Shown: piece after piece, positions 4,501 to 13,300 of the stretch | How positions within the stretch are numbered: the stretch's first letter is position 1 | Layout of the letters: each line of letters opens with the position of its first letter | Source: the human T2T-CHM13v2.0 reference genome, Homo sapiens | Assembly (NCBI RefSeq): GCF_009914755.1 | Contig: NC_060939.1 | Length of the DNA: 64,000 bases | Reading direction: 5' to 3' (one strand) | The notes under the pieces: generated by a model | The model's database searches: none | The model's input: only the letters and a program-made list of their open reading frames with translations | Told to the model about the DNA's origin: nothing | Made by a program: the position numbers and the translations under genes

Positions 4501-6189
4501 CATTTTAAGATAATCTGATGGCAAATTCATTATTTTCAAAGGCTCTTATAGCCAGTTATACTCCGGTTCATGGCTCCTTCCCCAAGCAGCCTCAGAAACG
4601 TCGCTGGGATGGATTATGATTCATATCATCACAGACATCCACAAATAGAGAGAAACTCAGATATTTTCACCGTGGTTTCCAAATGCTTTCTCTTTTTTCA
4701 GCCATGGAACTAATGTTTCAAATGAAATCTGGCTCAGAGCTGAGTGAATGGGACAGGGGAGAGGGGGGTCTCTCCTGCTGAATTAGTGTGGAGAACCCAA
4801 ATCCCCACCTGCCTGACACCCGTGTAGCTCCCTATGCTCCCTCATGAAGTCCCCAGCACCCATTGGAATGCCCAATTTGAAAAGCACTGCTCTCAAAGCG
4901 TCATAAGCATTTTCTCTTATCAGCAGTTCTACCTCTAAGACTCTAGATCCTCCCACTGGAGCACAGATGTTCGTCACAGCTTCATTTTTGACAGCAAGTA
5001 TTATAGAGGAAAACAGTTTAGCTCCTGCCACTGCACCGTCAATGGAGAATACACGGAGAGCCCGGACTTAGGAATAACGAGGCATCCCTCCCTGTCTCCC
5101 ACAGGGGTGGAATCAGTGGAGCCTAGTGGGGAGGTAGAATTGCCACTCTGGGCTAGTAGGAACAAGGATCTTCCCACCCCCGCCCCCCTCCCCAGGCATT
5201 AATAAAGGACAAGTAGAGAACATGAACTTCTACTTCCACCTGGCAGTAACAAAACAGCACAGTGTCTCCACTTTTGCTGCTGGAGCAATCTCAGAAGAAA
5301 CCAACTGGAACAGAAGGTTTAAATAGAATCCAGAATTTCACAACATAATACCCCAAATGTCCAGGTTTCAGTCAAAAATCACTTGTCTTATTGAGAACCA
5401 GCAAAACCTCGATTTGAATGAAAAAGACAATCAATATATACCAATACTGAGATGATGAAATGTTAGAATATGATAAGCAAATATGATAAATATGCTTCAA
5501 AAAGCAATTACAAACACACCTGAAACAAGTGAAAAATAGAAAATCTAGGCAAAGAAATAGAAGATAAAAAGAAGAACCAAATGAGAAATTTAAAACTGAA
5601 AAATACAGTAACTGAAATTAAAAACTCAATGATGGGCTTAACAGTAGAATGGACTGAGAAAAGTATCCACAAACTCGAAGATAGAATGACAGATATTACC
5701 CAGTTTGAACAAAGAGAACATAGACAGAAGAGTAAGAAGAAGGAGGAGAAGGAGAAGAGTAGTAGTAGAAGAACAAGAGAGTTTCAGGGATATGTGGGAT
5801 GATTAAAAAATTCTAACATTTATTGTCATCAGAGTTCCAGAAGAAGAGGAGAATGAGGGCTGAAAAAGTACTCAAAGAAATAATGGCTGAAAACTTCCTA
5901 AATTTGTCAAAAGACATAAATTTACTGATTCAAGAAACTGAGTGACCCTCAAACAAAATAAATTCAAAGAAATTTATCCCAAGAAACATCATGGTAAAAT
6001 TTAATGTGAAACTTTCACATTATAGTGAAAACCAAAGACAAATGAAAAATATTGAAAGCAGCAAGAGAGAAATGACACCTTACCTGGAGGAGAAACAATT
6101 CAAATGACACTGGGTTTCTCATTAAAAACCAAGGAAGCCAAAAAGAAATGTCACTGCATTTCCTAAGAGCTGAAAGAAAAGAAACCTCA

Positions 6190-6475
6190 GGCTGGGTATG
6201 GTGGCTCATCCCTGTAATCCCAGCACTTTGAGGAGGCTGAGGTAGGCAGATCACTTGAGGTCAGGAGTTCGAGGCCAGTGTGACCAACATGGTGAAACCC
6301 CATCTCTACTAAAAATACAAAAATCAGCCAGGCATGGTGATGGGTGCTGGTAATTTCAGCTACTCAGGAGGCTGAGGCAGGAGAATCGCTTGAAACCAGG
6401 AGGCAGAAGTTGCAGTGAGCCGAGATCATGCCACTGCACTCCAGCCTGGATGACAGAGTGAGACTCTGTCTCAAA

Positions 6476-6505
<30 letters not shown>
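6190..6505 (+). mobile_element. AluS
   Basis: Full dimer with A tail; TSD aaagaaaagaaa(c/t)ctcag on both sides. Confidence 0.97.
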
Positions 6506-6508
<3 letters not shown>

Positions 6509-6949
6509 GAAAAGAAATCTCAGCCCAGAATTCTATATGCCATGAAAATATCCTTCAGGAATGAAAGAGGAAATCAAGACATCACAGATGAAGGGAAACT
6601 AAGATAATTTGTCACCAGAGACCTAAAAGAATGGAAGTTCTCTAAACAGAAAGACAATGATAAAAGAAGCCATCTTGGAGCATTAGGAACAAGAAGGAAC
6701 AATGGAAAGGGCAAAAATATAGACAAATACATTTTCCTTCTCCTCTGGAGATTTCTGAATTGTTTCATGATTGAAGCAAAAATTATAGCACTGTTTGATG
6801 AGTTTCTAAATGTATATAGAGGAAATATTTAAGACATATTATAAATAAGAAAGGGTAGAGGAATATAAAGGGAGGTGTGATCCTACACTTCACTTGCACT
6901 GGTAAAATGTCAACACCAGTAGACTGTGATAAGTTATATAGATATAATG

Positions 6950-7268
<319 letters not shown>

Positions 7269-7492
7269 CTAGAGCAACCAGTTAAAATGCCACACAAAGA
7301 GAGACACTCCAAAACACTATCAATAAATCAAAATGGAATCCAAAAAAAAATGTCCCAGTAACCACAGGAATACAGGAAAAAGGAAATAGAGAAATGAAAA
7401 ACAGAGAGAACAAACAGAAAACAAAAAATAAAATGGCAGACTTAAGTCCTAATAGGTCAATAATTACATTAATTTAAAAGTTCTAAATACAT

Positions 7493-8180
7493 AATTTATT
7501 TTATTTTATTATTTTTTTAACCTTTATTTTAAGTTCAGGGGTACATGTGCAGTTTGTTCATAGGTAAATTGTGTGTCACAGAGGTCTGGAGTACGGATTA
7601 TTTTTTCACCCAGGTAATAAGCATAGTATCAGCTTTTTGATCCTCCTCCTCCTACCTTTCACCCTGAAGTAGGCCCTGGTGTCTGCTGTTCTCTTCTTTG
7701 TGTCCGTGTGTACTCAGTGTTTAGCTCCTAACTGTAAGTGAGAACGTGCAGTATTTGGTTTTCTGTTCCTGTATTAGTTCATTTAGGATAATGGACTCCA
7801 GTTCCATCCATGTTGCTGCAAAGGACATAATCTTGTTTTTTTATGGCTGCATAGTATTCCCTGGAGTATATGTACCACATTTTCTTTATCCAGTCTGCGG
7901 TTGATGGGCATTTAGGTTGATTCCACGTCTTTACTGTTGGAATAGTGCTGCAATGAACATATGCATGCATGTGTCTTCACGGTAGAACGATTTATTTTCC
8001 TTTGGGTGTATACCCAATAACGGGATTGCTGGGTCTAATGGTAATTCTGCTTTTAATTCTTTGAGGAATCACCACACTGCTTTCCACAATGGCTGAACTA
8101 ATTTGCATTCCCAGCAGTAGTGTATAAGTGTTCCCTCTTATCTGCAACCTTACCAACATCTGTTATTTTTTGACTTTTAA
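7493..8180 (-). mobile_element. L1PA (older primate subfamily) 3' end
   Basis: T-rich tail then tttattttaagttcaggggtacatgtgcag; minus-strand ORF2 C-terminal remnant [31 protein letters not shown]. Confidence 0.9.
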
Positions 8181-8284
8181 ACTTTTTCAATTCTAGCATA
8201 TATATATGCTATGTTTTGCCATGATATATATATAAAAAACATGGACTCACAGTAGCAGAACACACATTCTTTACAAGAGCCTAT

Positions 8285-8425
8285 ATAGCAAAGATATGGA
8301 GTCAATTTAAATGCCCATCAGTGGTTCCCGGATAAAAAAAAATGTGGTACATACACATGAGGGAATACTATGCACCCATAAAAAAGAACAAGATTATGTC
8401 CTTTGCAGAAACATGGATGGAGTTG
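8285..8425 (+). mobile_element. L1PA ORF2 3' fragment, inverted relative to the neighbouring L1PA
   Basis: aaatgcccatca...ggataaaaaaaaatgtggtacatacac...gaatactatgca...atgtcctttgcagaaacatggatggag. Confidence 0.85.
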
Positions 8426-8891
8426 GCCTTCAGGCATCACAAGAAATTCATTGTCCCAACAGGCATGGACAGAAGCCTCAAGTTCTACAGCCCATAGTCC
8501 CTGGCGCTTCTGACAAAAGCTGGGCCTCATCTCAGTAGAGGGATAGAATTAGGGTTGGGGGGCTGGGGGAAGTCTATGAGGGGAAGGAGCATCTGTAGTG
8601 TGGGATATTCACACCATTTCACTCTGGTCTTGGTGGTGGCCTGAGAGCCATGGTGGCATGGACCAACCTCATCCATGCACCTCCAGGCCTCATGGGAACA
8701 GATGTGGAAGGAAGAACTGTCACGCCTCAAGGCCCAAGGTCAGAGCCTCTCCCTTCCTGTCATTCAATGGACGTGGTAGTGGCTGTTCCACGCCCACTTT
8801 GCTGCAGTTCCTGTGAGAAGGGAAAGGCTGAGCCAAGGGAGCTGTGAAAGGGATGGGCAAGAGGGCTTGTGCAGGCTTGTATAAGCAGTGA
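8426..8891 (+). pseudogene. PRPF19: PRPF19 (Prp19/PSO4) processed retrocopy fragment: last 23 codons, stop, and presumed 3' UTR
   Basis: 8426-8497 translates [23 protein letters not shown], matching the recalled human PRPF19 C-terminus [23 protein letters not shown]; about 390 nt of non-repeat sequence follows, consistent with 3' UTR. Confidence 0.88.
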
Positions 8892-8994
8892 ACCCGGGAG
8901 GCGGAGCTTGCAGTGAGCCAAGATTGCACCACTGCACTCCAGCCTGGGCGACAGAGCGAGACTCCGTCTCAAAAAAAAAAAAAAAAAAGAAGAA
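8888..8994 (+). mobile_element. AluY, 5'-truncated (last ~85 nt plus A tail)
   Basis: gtgaacccgggaggcggagcttgcagtgagcc...gggcgacagagcgagactccgtctc(A)n with AluY-diagnostic GTGAACC and GAGCTTG. Confidence 0.93.
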
Positions 8995-9021
8995 AATTGT
9001 ACATATATATATATAGTTTTG

Positions 9022-10335
9022 AAAACTTAAGTAAATGGTGAATTTTGAAGTCAAGTTTCTCACTATTGGAATAGGAAGTTAGAGACAAGCAACAGGAGAA
9101 GGCTATAATGGGGTGGGGTGATTGATTAGAGCTGGAGATATGGATATAAACTCATGTCTAGACTAATATAGATACAGATGGATACATATTGAAATATTTA
9201 TAGATATGTGTGTATACACAGGTTAGTACACACACATAGAGTTTTCTGCTCTCTCTGCTGAGAGAGCCAAGAAGCAGTGTCACCCCAGGAGCACACCTGG
9301 TGCCCAGATCTTGATTTCTAACATCATTCTTCAACAAAAGAAATCAGAGTTCTCTGGGGAAATGGCTGGCACTACATCTGGGGCACAGACTATCTGAGAT
9401 GATCCTGGATCATCTTTTAATGTCAGAAAGCAAGAAAGTCCTCAAAACTAAGCCAAAATCCACAAAACATGATGATGGGAGTCTATCAAAGGAACGCAGA
9501 AGCCAACCCAAAGAGCTCCCAGAGACAAAGACTGGGACAATTTAAACAACAAATAAAGTAGTGTTAGATCATAACCTAAAATAAATATCTGAGTCCATAT
9601 TGTCATAAATAAATTATTCAATACATAGATAAATGGAAAAAATAGACAAATATTCTCCCTTCAAGGAGATAGCACATAACTCCTCATTCCTTAAGTATGG
9701 ACTGTGCCTAATGAATTTCTTTCCAAAAAGTACAGTAAGAAAGCAGGGGGTGGGGAGTTGGAGGTAGGGGTAGGGTGAAGAGTAAATTTTTGGTAGAGAA
9801 AACTGACAAACACTCTGTCATCCAGATGACCAAGGTTAACATTACCAGTGACAAATCATGTTGATGGTATATGTTGTTAATACGATGTGATAAGAAGGGC
9901 GCTTTGTGTTTGTGGTCTTCCTCCCCAAAACCCATAACCCCATTCTAATTATGAGAAAAAACATCAGACAAATCCCAATCAAGGGACATTTTATAAAATA
10001 TCTTGCCAGTGCGCCTCCAAAGGTCATAGAAAACAAGGAAGGTCTAAGAAATTGTCCCATCCAAGAGAATCCTAAGGAGACAATGATGACTAAATGTAAT
10101 GTAGTAACCTGAATGGAATCCTGGGCAGAAGAAGGACATTAGGTGAAAACTAAGGAAATCTGAATAAAGTATAGACCTTAGTTATTAATAATGGATCAAT
10201 ATGGGCACATTACTTGTGACAAGTGTATCATACTAATGTAAGGTGTTAATGAGGAAAACTGGGCATGAGACGTAGGGAAACTCTTCACAACATTTCCATA
10301 ACTCTAAGTCTATCCTAAAATAAAAAAGTTTACTT
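9022..10335 (+). mobile_element. L1MC-type long 3' UTR fragment nested in the L1M
   Basis: acatcagacaaatcccaatcaagggacatt...aaggtcatagaaaacaaggaaggtctaagaaattgtc...ctaaaataaaaaagttt. Confidence 0.75.
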
Positions 10336-10336
10336 A

Positions 10337-13300
10337 GAAAAGAAAGCAGGAGTGGCTATATAAATATTAGATGAAGAACACTTCAGAACAAAGAAAATTA
10401 CCAGAGACAGAGAGAAGCATTACCTAATGACAAAAGAATCAATCAACCAAGAAGATTTAACAATCAGAAACATGTATGTACCTAACAACAGAGCTACAAA
10501 AAACATGAAGCAAAAACTCATAGAACTGAATGGAGAAATAGACTAATCCATAATTATAGTTGGGGCTTGAATATTACTTTCTCAACAATTTATAGAACAA
10601 CTAGACAGAAACTTAGCAAGGATAAAAAGAACAACAATATCAACCAACAGGAGCTCATTGACATTTATGAAGCATGTGATTCCACAGTAGCAGAACACAC
10701 ATTCTTTATAATAGCCTATGAAACATATATCAAGATAGACTATATCCTGGGCCATAAAATAAATCTTAACAAAAAAGTTTAAAAAAATGGAATTCATGTA
10801 GAGTGTGTGCTTTGACCAGAGCAAAATCAAACTAGTAATCAATAACAGAAAGATACAGAAAAACCTCCAAATGTTTGAAAATATAACACACACACACTTC
10901 TAAATAATCCATGAATCAAAGAGGGAGTCCCAAGGAAAATAAAAAATATATTGAAGTAAATTAAAATGAAAATATGTCAAAATTTGTGGGATATAGCTAA
11001 AGCATATGGAAAGAATATATAATTAAACCCAAAGCAAGTGGAAGAAAGGGAATAACTAAGGTAAGAGCATAAACCAGTGGCATTAAAAACAGGAAAACAA
11101 AAAAGAAAATTCTATGAAATGTAAAGATCAATAAGATTGACAAATTTCTAGCAAGACTGACAAAGAAAAAAGAGAGAAGACAAACTAACATTATCAAGAA
11201 CAAAACAGAAAATATCACTACAGACCCTACAGTTATCAAAAGGGTAATAAAGGAATACCATGAAGAGCTCTATAGACATAAATTAGACAACTTGAGTGAA
11301 ATGGACCAATTTCTTGAAAAGCATAAATTACTACAACTCACCTGCTGTGAAATAGATAATTTTAATAGCCCTGTATCTACAAAGAAAAACAAACTTATAA
11401 TTTAAAAATTCTCCAAAAAGAAATCTCCAGGCCTAGATGATTTCAATACTAAATTGTATTTAAAGAAGAATTAACATCAATTCTAGACAATCTCTTCCAG
11501 GAAATAGAAAAGGAGGCAATAGCTCCCAATTCATTTTATAAAGCTAGTCTTATTCTGACCCTGAAAGCAGACAAAGATAGTTGTAAAAACGAAAACTACA
11601 GACCAATATCACGTATGAGTATAGATGCAAAAATTCTTAACAAAAAATGAGCACACAGAGTTCAGCAATATAGAAAAAGAATTAATTATGCATCAAAACT
11701 GGACAGGATTTATTCCAGCTATGCAACAATGGTTTGTCATTTAAATATCAATCAATATAATCTACCATATCATCAGGCTAAAGAATAATAATTACATGAT
11801 AGTATAAATGGACTCAGAAAAAAAATTTGACAAAATACAACACCAATTTATGATAAAAACTCTCAGCAAATTTAGAATAAATGGAAACTTCCTCAGCTTG
11901 ATGAAAAGCATCTACAGAAAACCTGCAGCTAACATTATATTTAATCACAAAAGACTGAATGATTTTCCTTTAAAACGGGGGACAAAGCAAGGATGTCCAC
12001 TATCATCAGTCTTATTTAGCATAGTATTGGAAGTTCTAGCCACTGCAATAAGACAAGAAAAGGAAATAAAAGGCATACATATTGGAGAGGAAAAAAACAA
12101 GTGTTCCTATTTGCAAATGACATCACTTTCTACATAGAAAACCCCAAGGAATCTATGCAAAACAAAAAACTTACTAGAACTAAAAAGTGCATTCAACAAG
12201 GTTGCAGGACACGGTTGCAGGATCTAAGATAACTATACAAAAATCAATTGTACACCTACATACTAACAATGATTGGGAGACTTAGCATACAATTTATAAT
12301 TGTTTTTTAAAAAGCAAAATACATGCAAATTTAACAAGACATAAGAACCATATGCTAAAAATTACAAAACTGTTGAAAGAAATCAAAGATCTAACAAATG
12401 AAGAGATGGACTCTGTAGATTGGAAGACTCAACATAGCAGAGATATCAATTATCTCCAATTTTATATACAAGTTTAACACAATTTCTATCAAAACTCCAC
12501 CAAGAGTCTTTTGAAGATGTTGACAAAATTATCCTAAAATTTATATAAAAACACAAATTACTAAAATAGCTTCAAAAAATTCAAAAAAGAAGAGCAAAGT
12601 GAAATTAGTCCACCAATTTCAAGACATATTATCTAGCTCTAGTAATCAAGGCTGCAGTACTGGCAGAGGGATCGACACACAGATCAATAGAACGGAGAAC
12701 CCAGAAATAGACCCACAGAAAAATGACCAACAGATTTTTGACAAAGGTGCACAATCAATTTGATGGGTTAAGTACAGCTTTTTCAATGAACGGTGCTATA
12801 ACAATTGGACATCTATAGGCAAAAAGTGAACTTCATCCTCAGCCTCACACCTAATTCAAAATGGAACGTGGACTTAAATGTAAAATATAAAACTATAAAT
12901 CTTTTAGAAAAAAATTGGAGGAAATCTTTGGGCTTTATGGTTAAGCCAAGAATTGCTAAACTTGACACCAATGGCACAATCCATAATGAAAAAAACTGAT
13001 AGATAGGACTTCATCAAAGTTTCAAATTTTGTTCTAGAAAAGACCCTGTTAAAGGGATGGAAAGACAAGCCACAGACTATGAGAAAATATTTGCGAAACA
13101 CATACCCGACAAAGGACTGGTATCTAGAATATATAAAGAACTCTCAAAACTTAATAGGAAAAAAAACCAAAAACAAACCCAAAAAAGCCAATTAGAAAAT
13201 GGCATAAACAGACGCTTCACCAAAGATGTCCAGCATCATTAGGCATTAGGGAAAAACAAATTAAAACACAATGAAATATCAATATGTATCCATCAGAATG

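What the first reader, a model, noticed from the sequence alone, without database searches (positions are those of the whole stretch)
8189..9021. Four-template chimeric retro-cassette (local DNA + L1PA + PRPF19 mRNA 3' end + AluY) between degenerate direct repeats
Seen: the parts run 5'->3' as a copy of host-L1 DNA (about 8219-8284), a plus-strand L1PA ORF2 fragment (8285-8425), a PRPF19 C-terminus/3' UTR piece (8426-8891) and a truncated AluY with A tail. Similar sequences flank it: aattctagcatatatatatgctatgttttg (8189-8218) and aattgtacatatatatatatagttttg (8995-9021). Established: L1 ORF2p can switch templates during TPRT, producing cellular-RNA/L1 chimeras. Inference: one insertion began on PRPF19 mRNA, switched to L1 RNA, then copied nearby genomic DNA, and the flanks are an aged, (TA)n-slipped TSD. 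Here the cellular mRNA is the 3' partner and L1 the 5' partner, the reverse of the common U6-L1 arrangement.
Basis: partly seen in the sequence, partly recalled or inferred. Interest (0 to 1): 0.85.

Follow-up and report, generated by a model that had tools for sequence, protein, structure and literature searches.

The report
Old chimeric retrocopy with later Alu
A fossil insertion on human chromosome 15 joins a short copy of nearby DNA, a LINE-1 fragment and the tail end of the PRPF19 gene between duplicated target sites, and was later capped by a younger Alu; it records how LINE-1 machinery stitches sequences together but shows no sign of function.

Summary
Window 8219-8994 is a same-strand composite between two copies of one target stretch (8189-8218 and 8995-9021). 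These two copies are each other's best match in the window.

The parts, 5' to 3':
- AT-rich filler.
- A 37-nt copy (35/37) of the degenerate L1 endonuclease-coding DNA at 10683-10719. This is its only other match in the 3.1-Gb genome.
- 141 nt of L1 ORF2.
- 468 nt of the last exon of PRPF19, 87% identical to the chr11 gene.
- The last 84 nt of an Alu with an A18 tail.

The "four templates in one event" reading does not hold. The L1 and PRPF19 pieces are about 11% diverged. The Alu piece has 0 of 68 non-CpG changes (Fisher p=0.001-0.002), so it is younger.

Best reading: an old LINE-1-mediated insertion of PRPF19 mRNA that switched to L1 RNA. Its 5' end was finished with a tract copied from nearby DNA. 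A later Alu event replaced the original 3' end at a GTGA microhomology.

Serial tail-primed replacements cannot be excluded without primate alignments. Both unusual features have experimental precedent. This is a new member of a known kind, neutral, and of modest interest.

The parts
8189..8218 (+). 5' copy of the target-site duplication (30 nt), derived from the host repeat 'B'; contains an 18-nt perfect palindrome at 8194-8211
   Evidence: Score-17 alignment to 8995-9021; 4 of 53,116 tiles reach that score; reciprocal best match in the window. It begins with the family motif CAATTCT and shares GTTTTG with the 3' copy, which 0 of 8 paralogs have. Palindrome.
8219..8247 (+). AT-rich filler of unassigned origin at the 5' junction. 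It may partly continue the local-copy homology from about 8238.
   Evidence: No genome match other than itself. Weak, gapped resemblance to window 10672-10682 in the alignment. Hairpin test not significant (z=-1.38).
8248..8284 (+). 37-nt copy of the local degenerate L1 endonuclease-coding DNA at 10683-10719, same orientation. The donor lay 1,661 nt downstream of the target site.
   Evidence: 35/37 identity. Median 26/37 and maximum 31/37 against 28 paralogs, with 7 shared departures from the family state. The only other hit in the 3.1-Gb genome is the local donor.
8285..8425 (+). L1 ORF2 internal fragment (about codons 1204-1250 of 1275). It has no L1 3' end or tail of its own.
   Evidence: Genome L1 hits cover only this span, 39 of them full-length at 81-87% identity. 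ORF2p residues 1221-1250, E=8.3e-6. It differs from the >=70% majority of 20 L1 copies at 18 of 138 columns, which I read as 16 substitutions plus 1 indel; star-tree own branch 0.11.
8424..8891 (+). PRPF19 last-exon piece: coding remnant 8426-8494, stop 8495-8497, 3' UTR 8498-8891. It starts 25 nt into the last exon and stops 12 nt before the ATTAAA signal of the parent gene.
   Evidence: It overlaps the L1 piece by TGG (8424-8426) and the Alu piece by TGA (8889-8891; GTGA if the AluY form recalled from memory applies).
8889..8970 (+). 3'-terminal segment of an Alu (Y-like), 5'-truncated; younger than the other parts
   Evidence: 4 of 84 differences from the majority of 59 Alu copies: 3 CpG transitions and 1 subfamily variant. 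95.2% identity against a median of 87.8% for the copies; only 2 of 59 copies are as close. Age tests.
8971..8994 (+). A-rich tail: a pure A18 followed by G-AA-G-AA. The interrupted end may be a remnant of the older tail (inference).
   Evidence: Read directly from the sequence.
8995..9021 (+). 3' copy of the target-site duplication (27 nt), continuous with the host repeat 'B' that runs on to about 10335
   Evidence: A profile of 13 B-family segments aligns from 9014 onward (E=1.5e-6, envelope from 8994). Paralog alignment.
10683..10719 (+). Donor of the local copy, inside the old plus-strand L1 'A' (endonuclease-coding region)
   Evidence: Window 10486-10779 translates to ORF2p endonuclease residues about 146-216 (7n8s_A, E=2.8e-11). 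Also.

Best explanation
Window 8219-8994 is a neutral fossil of LINE-1-mediated retrotransposition, built in at least two steps.

Step 1 (old; the parts are now about 11% diverged).
- L1 ORF2p nicked an old L1-type 3'-end repeat ('B') and began target-primed reverse transcription on the poly(A) end of a PRPF19 transcript.
- After roughly 0.5 kb, 25 nt inside the last exon, the enzyme switched at a TGG microhomology to L1 RNA and copied 141 nt of ORF2.
- The opposite (reciprocal) DNA end was extended by a short tract templated from L1-derived DNA 1.66 kb downstream, plus AT-rich filler, before ligation.
- The staggered breaks left a 27-30-nt target-site duplication.

Step 2 (younger, in the era of Y-type Alus).
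- An Alu reverse transcript primed in or near the old A-tail.
- It was joined upstream at a (G)TGA microhomology. This removed the end of the PRPF19 3' UTR from 12 nt before its ATTAAA signal, together with most of the old tail.
- The result is 84 nt of Alu plus a fresh A18.

What is shown and what is inferred.
- Shown: the identity and order of the parts, the duplication, the local origin of the 37-nt tract, the microhomologies, and the age gap between the Alu and the L1 and PRPF19 pieces.
- Inferred: an RNA template for the PRPF19 piece, a single event for step 1, the reciprocal-end mechanism, and the mode of the Alu replacement.
- The element has no evident function.
For: Parts and order.

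Target-site duplication:
- Score 17, reached by 4 of 53,116 tiles, and a reciprocal best match in the window.
- The stretch occurs once in 7 of 8 aligned paralogs. Both window copies share GTTTTG, seen in 0 of 8 paralogs.
- The 3' copy is continuous with the B family.

Local copy: 35/37 identity, against a median of 26/37 for 28 paralogs, with 7 shared departures. The local donor is the only other genome match.

Similar ages of the old parts:
- The L1 piece differs at 16/138 columns (own branch 0.11).
- The PRPF19 piece differs at 50/466, including 11 of 74 coding positions and 5 amino-acid changes in 23 codons of a remnant of a conserved gene.

The Alu is younger:
- 0/68 non-CpG changes, against 16/138 (p=0.0012) and 44/452 (p=0.0016).
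- It is closer to the Alu majority than 57 of 59 copies, and it has a pure A18.

The PRPF19 piece is unique: only the window and the parent gene match it in the genome, so it was not copied from another chimeric locus.

Precedent, from section 7 of bioRxiv 10.1101/2024.12.14.628481 (PMC11702581), read. Among de novo L1-driven insertions in cultured cells:
- nine carried sequence from two transcripts, and same-orientation cases were ascribed to template switching;
Against: - No splice junction is crossed, so an RNA origin of the PRPF19 piece is not demonstrated.
- The PRPF19 piece lacks its own 3' end and tail, so the claim that priming began on PRPF19 poly(A) is inferred.
- The site at the 5' edge of the duplication reads TC/AATT. 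That matches 3 of 6 positions of the TT/AAAA endonuclease motif (motif as quoted in PMC13174262).
- The 5' copy of the duplication is too short to be detected by the B-family profile (no hit). Its family assignment rests on CAATTCT and on its likeness to the 3' copy.
- The 37-nt tract differs from its donor at only 2 positions. If both have diverged about 8-11% since the event, about 5.5-7.5 differences are expected; by my own binomial arithmetic, P(<=2) is roughly 0.014-0.07. Trimming by local alignment inflates the identity, and the weaker homology at 8238-8247 would raise the count.
- The ages of the L1 and PRPF19 pieces cannot separate one event from two.
- The share of PRPF19 divergence that lies on the parent gene's lineage is unknown. 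Conservation of the parent protein is recalled, not tested.
- A minus-strand L1 abuts the 5' copy within about 7 nt, and the upstream part of repeat B is missing there. This coincidence is unexplained.
Confidence: 0.5

Rival explanations
1. Serial tail-primed replacement.
- An ordinary 5'-truncated L1 insertion, from 8285 through its own 3' end and A-tail, created the duplication and the 5'-junction tract.
- Later a PRPF19 retrocopy primed in that A-tail and was joined upstream at TGG. This deleted the L1's last few hundred bases.
- Later still an Alu did the same to the PRPF19 copy at (G)TGA.
- No RNA-to-RNA template switch is needed.
For: - The Alu step shows that such a replacement, or something equivalent, did happen at this locus.
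- Both internal junctions have the same form: a 3' fragment joined upstream at a 3-4-nt microhomology.
- A short 5'-truncated L1 would be an ordinary starting insertion. De novo L1 insertions had a median length of 712 bp in PMC11702581 (passage seen).
- The L1 piece (16/138) is nominally, but not significantly, more diverged than the PRPF19 piece (50/466).
- Retrotransposition-mediated deletion by L1 and Alu is a described process. I recall Gilbert 2002, Symer 2002, Han 2005 and Callinan 2005; these were not read here.
Against: - It needs two rare deletion-type insertions in succession into the same 20-30-nt tail.
- No remnant of the L1 3' end or of an intermediate tail is visible, apart from the interrupted G-AA-G-AA at 8989-8994.
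- The age difference between the L1 and PRPF19 pieces is not significant.
Confidence: 0.25
2. One reading: one event with four templates. Reverse transcription began on Alu RNA, then switched to PRPF19 mRNA, then to L1 RNA, then to local sequence.
For: - All parts lie head to tail on one strand between one pair of direct repeats, with the only A-tail behind the Alu.
- There is a microhomology at the Alu/PRPF19 junction.
- Multi-template chimeras are known. Tripartite cases are described in PMC2104539 (abstract and passages).
Against: - The Alu piece has 0/68 non-CpG changes, against 16/138 and 44/452 in the other parts (p=0.0012 and p=0.0016; p=0.043 under the most lenient split).
- It ranks among the 3 least diverged of 60 Alu segments.
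- The pure A18 contrasts with a duplication whose two copies differ at 5 of 30 columns.
- PMC13174262, section 12, looked for a match between the activity periods of the partner subfamilies and found one in 82.8% of its Alu/LINE-1 chimeras. Such a match fails here.
Confidence: 0.07
3. The Alu was an original part of an old chimera, from an older Alu subfamily, and was later overwritten by gene conversion from a Y-type Alu.
For: This would reconcile the single pair of direct repeats and the single tail with the young look of the Alu piece. Alu-to-Alu gene conversion is a described process (recalled, not read here).
Against: - Conversion would have to cover all 84 nt and erase every older substitution, yet 3 of 8 CpGs have since decayed.
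- It does not explain the pure A18.
- There is no mosaic pattern within the piece.
Confidence: 0.05
4. Endonuclease-independent patching of a double-strand break. The break captured cDNA or DNA fragments (L1, PRPF19, local DNA) by end joining or microhomology-mediated synthesis, and the flanking repeat arose from a staggered break or local duplication rather than from ORF2p nicking.
For: - Poor match to the TT/AAAA motif, at 3 of 6 positions.
- No splice junction in the PRPF19 piece.
- Presence of filler and of a tract templated from nearby DNA.
- Internal fragments lack their own 3' ends.
Against: - All pieces are in one orientation and end in an A-tail.
- A 27-30-nt duplication with the tail directly against its 3' copy is the signature of target-primed reverse transcription.
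- The motif is expected to blur at this age. In PMC13174262, section 12, only 40% of accepted Alu/LINE-1 chimeras showed it.
Confidence: 0.08

Closest known systems
Chimeric retrogenes formed by template switching during LINE reverse transcription, bipartite and tripartite. Sources: Buzdin et al. 2003 (recalled; PMC169886 is not held); Gogvadze et al. 2007, PMC2104539 (abstract and passages read).
   Same: Head-to-tail copies of different transcripts on one strand, an A-tailed 3' end, and one pair of flanking direct repeats. A double switch gives three parts.
   Different: - The usual 5' partner is a full-length small RNA such as U6, and the 3' partner is L1. Here the 3' partner of the old core is an mRNA end, the middle part is an internal L1 ORF2 fragment, and the 5'-most part is copied from nearby DNA.
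- PMC2104539 states that the two human tripartite elements then known had no identifiable direct repeats. This one has them.
Non-canonical de novo L1-mediated insertions in cultured cells. Source: Mendez-Dorantes et al., bioRxiv 10.1101/2024.12.14.628481, PMC11702581 (section 7 read).
   Same: - Insertions carrying two transcripts in the same orientation, ascribed to template switching or RNA ligation, with microhomology or untemplated bases at the junctions.
[quoted passage not shown]
   Different: - Those are fresh somatic events in an over-expression system. This one is an old germline fossil that combines both features and carries a later Alu overprint.
- The figures of that paper, which show the partner identities, could not be seen.
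5'-partner/3'-LINE-1 chimeric insertions catalogued by comparative genomics. Source: Law and Burns 2026, PMC13174262 (introduction and section 12 read; 4 supplementary files searched for PRPF19 with no occurrence).
   Same: ORF2p-mediated chimeras recognised by shared flanking duplications, a tail, and partners of the same age.
   Different: That catalogue is built around L1 as the 3' partner. An insertion whose 3' partner is an mRNA or an Alu, with only an internal L1 fragment, falls outside its design.
Retrotransposition-mediated deletion by L1 or Alu (Gilbert 2002; Symer 2002; Han 2005; Callinan 2005). All are recalled; only titles that cite the term were seen in the listing.
   Same: A 5'-truncated retro-element with an A-tail, joined upstream at a microhomology, with no duplication of its own and with loss of resident sequence. 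This fits the Alu/PRPF19 junction.
   Different: The lost sequence here is inferred from the parent gene (the end of the 3' UTR plus the tail), not observed in an outgroup. A full-length Alu insertion followed by an ordinary deletion would look the same.
5'-truncated processed pseudogene
   Same: A copy of the 3' end of a gene from another chromosome, decayed coding remnant, within a duplication-flanked, A-tailed insertion.
   Different: It covers only part of one exon. It is also truncated at its 3' end, before the poly(A) signal, and it is fused to L1 sequence at its 5' end.

Membership tests
LINE-1 (ORF2p) mediated insertion by target-primed reverse transcription | Flanking target-site duplication | tested here: met
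   The 30-nt and 27-nt copies align with score 17, reached by 4 of 53,116 tiles. They are reciprocal best matches in the window. The stretch occurs once in 7 of 8 paralogs, and the window copies share a derived GTTTTG.
LINE-1 (ORF2p) mediated insertion by target-primed reverse transcription | A-rich tail directly before the 3' copy of the duplication | tested here: met
   A18-G-AA-G-AA at 8971-8994 abuts 8995. The pure A18 probably belongs to the later Alu.
LINE-1 (ORF2p) mediated insertion by target-primed reverse transcription | Endonuclease motif TT/AAAA at the insertion site | tested here: inconclusive
   The site reads TC/AATT, matching 3 of 6 positions. The site is old and AT-rich. PMC13174262 reports the motif in only 40% of its accepted Alu/LINE-1 chimeras.
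Chimeric retrogene made in one event by template switching | Parts fused head to tail in one orientation inside one duplication | tested here: met
   All parts are on the plus strand between 8218 and 8995.
Chimeric retrogene made in one event by template switching | All parts of the same age | tested here: not met
   The L1 piece (16/138) and the PRPF19 piece (50/466) are compatible with each other. The Alu piece is younger: 0/68 non-CpG changes, p=0.0012 and p=0.0016. The four-part version therefore fails. The three-part core is not excluded.
Chimeric retrogene made in one event by template switching | Parts appear together on one branch; an empty site exists in outgroups | not testable with these tools
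   No primate or other mammalian genomes are held. Only the window's own genome could be searched.
Processed pseudogene of PRPF19 | Derived from the PRPF19 gene and located away from it | tested here: met
   87% identity to the chr11 locus. Only the window and the parent gene match in the genome. The parent exon encodes PRPF19 residues 474-504.
Processed pseudogene of PRPF19 | Introns removed | tested here: inconclusive
   The piece starts 25 nt inside the last exon and crosses no exon junction.
Processed pseudogene of PRPF19 | Ends at the mRNA poly(A) site with its own tail | tested here: not met
   Homology stops 12 nt before the parent's ATTAAA signal, where the Alu begins.
AluY subfamily | Subfamily-diagnostic bases | tested here: inconclusive
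   Only the last 84 nt are present. One variant base (C where 43 of 59 copies have G; 9 of 59 have C) fits my recalled AluY pattern. No Alu library is held.

The most novel reading that the evidence does not exclude
The old core (local-DNA tract + internal L1 ORF2 fragment + PRPF19 3' end) was made in a single ORF2p event. That would make it a human germline tripartite chimera with a verifiable target-site duplication, in which an mRNA is the 3' partner, L1 RNA is the acceptor of the switch, and the reciprocal DNA end copied DNA 1.66 kb away. It would be a natural counterpart of outcomes so far documented mainly in over-expression experiments, and an example of a class (3' partner not L1) that current chimera catalogues are not designed to find.
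Probability: 0.45. Interest if true: 0.45.

Novelty: new member of a known kind. Interest (0 to 1): 0.3.

Why it matters
The element has no sign of function, and none of the RefSeq functional elements listed for the window overlaps it. Its value is as a record of mechanism.

- It shows in the germline that an L1-driven insertion primed on a cellular transcript can pick up L1 RNA as a second template.
- It also shows that the 5' junction can be finished with DNA copied from nearby. Both outcomes were recently seen in cultured cells (PMC11702581).
- It illustrates how a later Alu can overwrite the 3' end of an older retrocopy. One pair of direct repeats then encloses parts of different ages, which is a trap for calling 'chimeras' from anatomy alone.
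- Catalogues built on L1 as the 3' partner (PMC13174262) would miss this class. A search for internal L1 fragments fused 5' to mRNA 3' ends, with age matching, would show how common it is.

Tried and rejected
1. My own rival idea: the L1 piece 8285-8425 and the sequence from 9013 onward are one L1 interrupted by a PRPF19/Alu insertion. Rejected.
- 0 of 29 paralog loci of 9013-9700 carry an adjacent match to 8200-8425; there was one non-adjacent 50-nt hit, in L007.
- 8 of the 9 paralogs inspected continue upstream with a shared non-ORF2 sequence.

2. A third copy of the duplicated stretch at 7478-7496, left of the minus-strand L1. Rejected: its scores are 10 and 8, which are common background values.

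3. Window 8175-8290 as the missing continuation of the old L1 'A'. The alignment to 15 A-family paralogs was not convincing.

4. Snap-back hairpin origin of the filler. The fold of 8186-8250 is not significant: z=-1.38, and 22 of 200 shuffles fold as well.

5. Detecting the 5' copy with a B-family profile built from 13 segments. No hit; only the 3' side was found.

6. Pfam scan of the stop-free 30 residues of the L1 piece: 0 families. The PDB sequence search succeeded instead.

7. CpG decay as a clock: 3 of 8 CpGs decayed in the Alu against 5 of 6 in PRPF19. Not significant on its own (p=0.12).

8. Age of the minus-strand L1 against the L1 piece: 11/138 against 16/138. Not significant (p=0.42).

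9. An own duplication for the Alu. None is visible by eye around 8860-8891 and 8989-9010.

10. Literature.
- PRPF19 was not found in the 4 supplementary files held for PMC13174262.
- PMC169886 (Buzdin 2003) and PMC1190285 (Gilbert 2005) are not held, so statements about them are from recall.
Full report
**What is there**

I read window 7500-9700 and its surroundings. Between 8219 and 8994 lie five pieces, all on the plus strand.

PRPF19 piece, 8424-8891.
- A whole-genome search of the window's own assembly with 8426-8891 gives two matches: the window itself and chr11:60841918-60842393, minus strand, at 87%.
- BLAST puts the homology at 8424-8891 with 415/479 identities. A global alignment gives 50 mismatches in 466 columns (10.7%), 38 of them transitions, and 5 gap events.
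- The chr11 exon translates to residues 474-504 of the 504-residue Pre-mRNA-processing factor 19 (5mqf_G, E=1.1e-18).
- The window keeps a 24-codon remnant and the stop codon.
- In the parent gene the piece starts 25 nt after the last intron's AG and stops 12 nt before an ATTAAA signal. It therefore lies wholly in the last exon and crosses no splice junction.

L1 piece, 8285-8425.
- Genome matches to 8219-8425 cover only 8285-8425. Thirty-nine run the length of that span at 81-87% identity and 2 short ones reach 92-95%. Only 40 of 5,091 candidates were scored.
- Its stop-free part matches human ORF2p residues 1221-1250 of 1275 (E=8.3e-6).

Alu piece, 8889-8972. This is the last 84 nt of an Alu. 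It is followed by A18-G-AA-G-AA up to 8994.

Local copy, 8248-8284.
- It matches window 10683-10719 at 35/37.
- That donor lies in an old plus-strand L1 whose reading frame at 10486-10779 matches the ORF2p endonuclease domain (E=2.8e-11).

Filler, 8219-8247. This is AT-rich sequence I could not assign.

**Surroundings**

- An old plus-strand L1 ('A') occupies about 6000-7496 and resumes at about 10337. My reading of the left part as ORF1 and the ORF2 start is from recall; the right part was tested.
- Between these two parts sits a minus-strand L1 3' end ('C', 7497 to about 8181). It matches ORF2p residues 1204-1241 at E=1.3e-14.
- The cassette follows C.
- After the cassette comes an old interspersed repeat ('B', 9022 to about 10335). 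It has at least 865 candidate copies in the genome at 67-78% identity. I recognise it from memory as an L1M-type 3' end.

**The flanks are a real target-site duplication**

- 8189-8218 and 8995-9021 align with 25 matches, 2 mismatches and 3 one-base gaps (score 17). Among 53,116 forty-base tiles of the window and fetched loci, on both strands, 4 reach that score. That is about 8e-4 for a 100-nt search span.
- Within the window each flank is the other's best match; the next best score is 14.
- Eight of the nine B-family paralogs inspected continue upstream of the 9019-equivalent with a shared sequence.
- In the alignment of eight of them, the stretch corresponding to the flanks occurs once in seven; the eighth, L026, has a duplication of its own.
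- Both window copies carry GTTTTG, where 0 of 8 paralogs do.
- A B-family profile detects the 3' side from 9014 onward (E=1.5e-6). It does not detect the short 5' copy.

**The 37-nt tract is a copy of this locus**

- Against 28 paralogs of family A, the tract scores a median of 26/37 and a maximum of 31/37. Against the local copy it scores 35/37.
- The tract and the local copy share 7 departures from the commonest family state, each held by only 1-7 of the 28 paralogs.
- A whole-genome search with 8205-8290 finds only the query itself and the local donor.
- Before the insertion the donor lay 1,661 nt downstream of the target, in the same orientation.

**Ages**

- The L1 piece differs from the >=70% majority of 20 similar genomic L1 copies at 18 of 138 columns. 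I read these as 16 substitutions plus one indel. A star-tree estimate of its own branch is 0.11.
- The PRPF19 piece is 10.7% from its parent. This includes 11 of 74 coding positions and 5 amino-acid changes in 23 codons. If the parent protein is conserved (recalled, not tested), most of this divergence lies on the copy's lineage.
- The Alu piece differs from the majority of 59 Alu 3' segments in hand at 4 of 84 positions: three CpG transitions and one variant held by 9 of 59 copies. It is 95.2% identical to the majority, against a median of 87.8% for the copies, and only 2 of 59 copies are as close.
- Non-CpG changes are 0/68 in the Alu, against 16/138 in the L1 piece (one-sided Fisher p=0.0012) and 44/452 in the PRPF19 piece (p=0.0016; p=0.043 if that count is halved). 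All-site comparisons are weaker (p=0.03 and p=0.06), and CpG decay alone is not significant (p=0.12).
- The two copies of the duplication differ at 5 of 30 columns, which also looks old, although (TA)n tracts are unstable.
- I conclude that the Alu is younger than the rest.

**Junctions**

- L1/PRPF19: the two homologies overlap by TGG at 8424-8426.
- PRPF19/Alu: the two BLAST alignments overlap by TGA at 8889-8891. The overlap is GTGA if the Y-type Alu form I recall applies.
- Local tract/L1: no clear overlap.

**Mechanism**

Most likely (0.5) is the two-step history below.

1. An old ORF2p-mediated event was primed on a PRPF19 transcript and switched to L1 RNA. The reciprocal DNA end added a tract templated from nearby DNA before ligation.
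2. A later Alu event overwrote the 3' end.

Both unusual features have direct experimental precedent, described in section 7 of PMC11702581. Nine de novo insertions carried two transcripts, with same-orientation cases ascribed to template switching. [quoted passage not shown]

The main rival (0.25) is serial tail-primed replacement without any RNA-to-RNA switch. The ages of the L1 and PRPF19 pieces cannot separate the two readings.

The one-event, four-template reading (0.07) fails the age test. PMC13174262, section 12, reports that partner subfamilies were active at the same time in 82.8% of its Alu/LINE-1 chimeras. That match is absent here.

**Points against my reading**

- No splice junction is crossed.
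- The endonuclease motif is weak (TC/AATT).
- The PRPF19 piece lacks its own end and tail.
- The 37-nt tract has fewer differences from its donor than an old event predicts. By my own arithmetic, P(<=2) is about 0.014-0.07, and local-alignment trimming biases the identity upward.
- The minus-strand L1 C ends within about 7 nt of the 5' copy of the duplication, and the upstream part of B and about 170 nt of A (my estimate from recall) are missing there. I cannot explain this proximity. C shows no duplication of its own, and it may have arrived with a deletion.

**Comparison with what is known**

- Tripartite chimeras are known. PMC2104539 notes that the two human examples then known lacked identifiable direct repeats.
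- The recent comparative catalogue PMC13174262 is designed around L1 as the 3' partner. None of its 4 held supplementary files mentions PRPF19.
- My literature searches turned up no description of this locus. I ran no literature search for PRPF19 itself; it was looked for only in those 4 supplementary files.
- This is a new member of a known kind.

**Verdict**

- Observation: confirmed.
- Interpretation: partly supported. The duplication, the local copy and the PRPF19-to-L1 order hold. The Alu is not part of the same event.
- Function: none evident.
- Interest: 0.3.

Noticed in passing
window 7497-8181 (minus strand): An L1 3' end lies on the minus strand, with its T-rich tail at 7497-7520. 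It matches ORF2p residues 1204-1241 (E=1.3e-14) and ends about 7 nt from the 5' copy of the duplication. It has no duplication of its own: the flank at 7478-7496 scores only 8-10 against the other flanks. The upstream part of repeat B and part of L1 'A' are missing at this point, which suggests an insertion-associated deletion. It differs from the L1 majority at 11/138 columns, against 16/138 for the cassette's L1 piece; the difference is not significant.
   Followed up: partly
window 7798-7935 and 8287-8426: The cassette's plus-strand L1 piece and the minus-strand L1 cover the same ORF2 codons. They therefore form an inverted repeat, 82-91% complementary and about 350-540 nt apart. Because the two segments overlap in L1 coordinates, this is not a twin-priming inversion.
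   Followed up: yes
window 6941-7262: A full-length Alu lies inside old L1 'A'. By eye it is flanked by a perfect 17-nt direct repeat, at about 6941-6957 and 7246-7262. It is an ordinary insertion that contrasts with the truncated, duplication-less Alu of the cassette.
   Followed up: no
window 8194-8211: An 18-nt perfect palindrome centred on a (TA)n run lies inside the 5' copy of the duplication. The fold of 8186-8250 is not better than shuffles (z=-1.38).
   Followed up: yes
L026 (G000 chr2:150037783-150041406), upstream of the 9019-equivalent: This one paralog of repeat B carries its own tandem duplication of the stretch that serves as the target site in the window.
   Followed up: no
L002 positions about 49-151 (G000 chr11, downstream of PRPF19): An Alu lies about 1.35 kb downstream of the PRPF19 3' UTR match, in the same orientation as the gene. 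It is 84% identical to the cassette's Alu piece. It is too far away and too different to be the source of the Alu in the cassette.
   Followed up: partly
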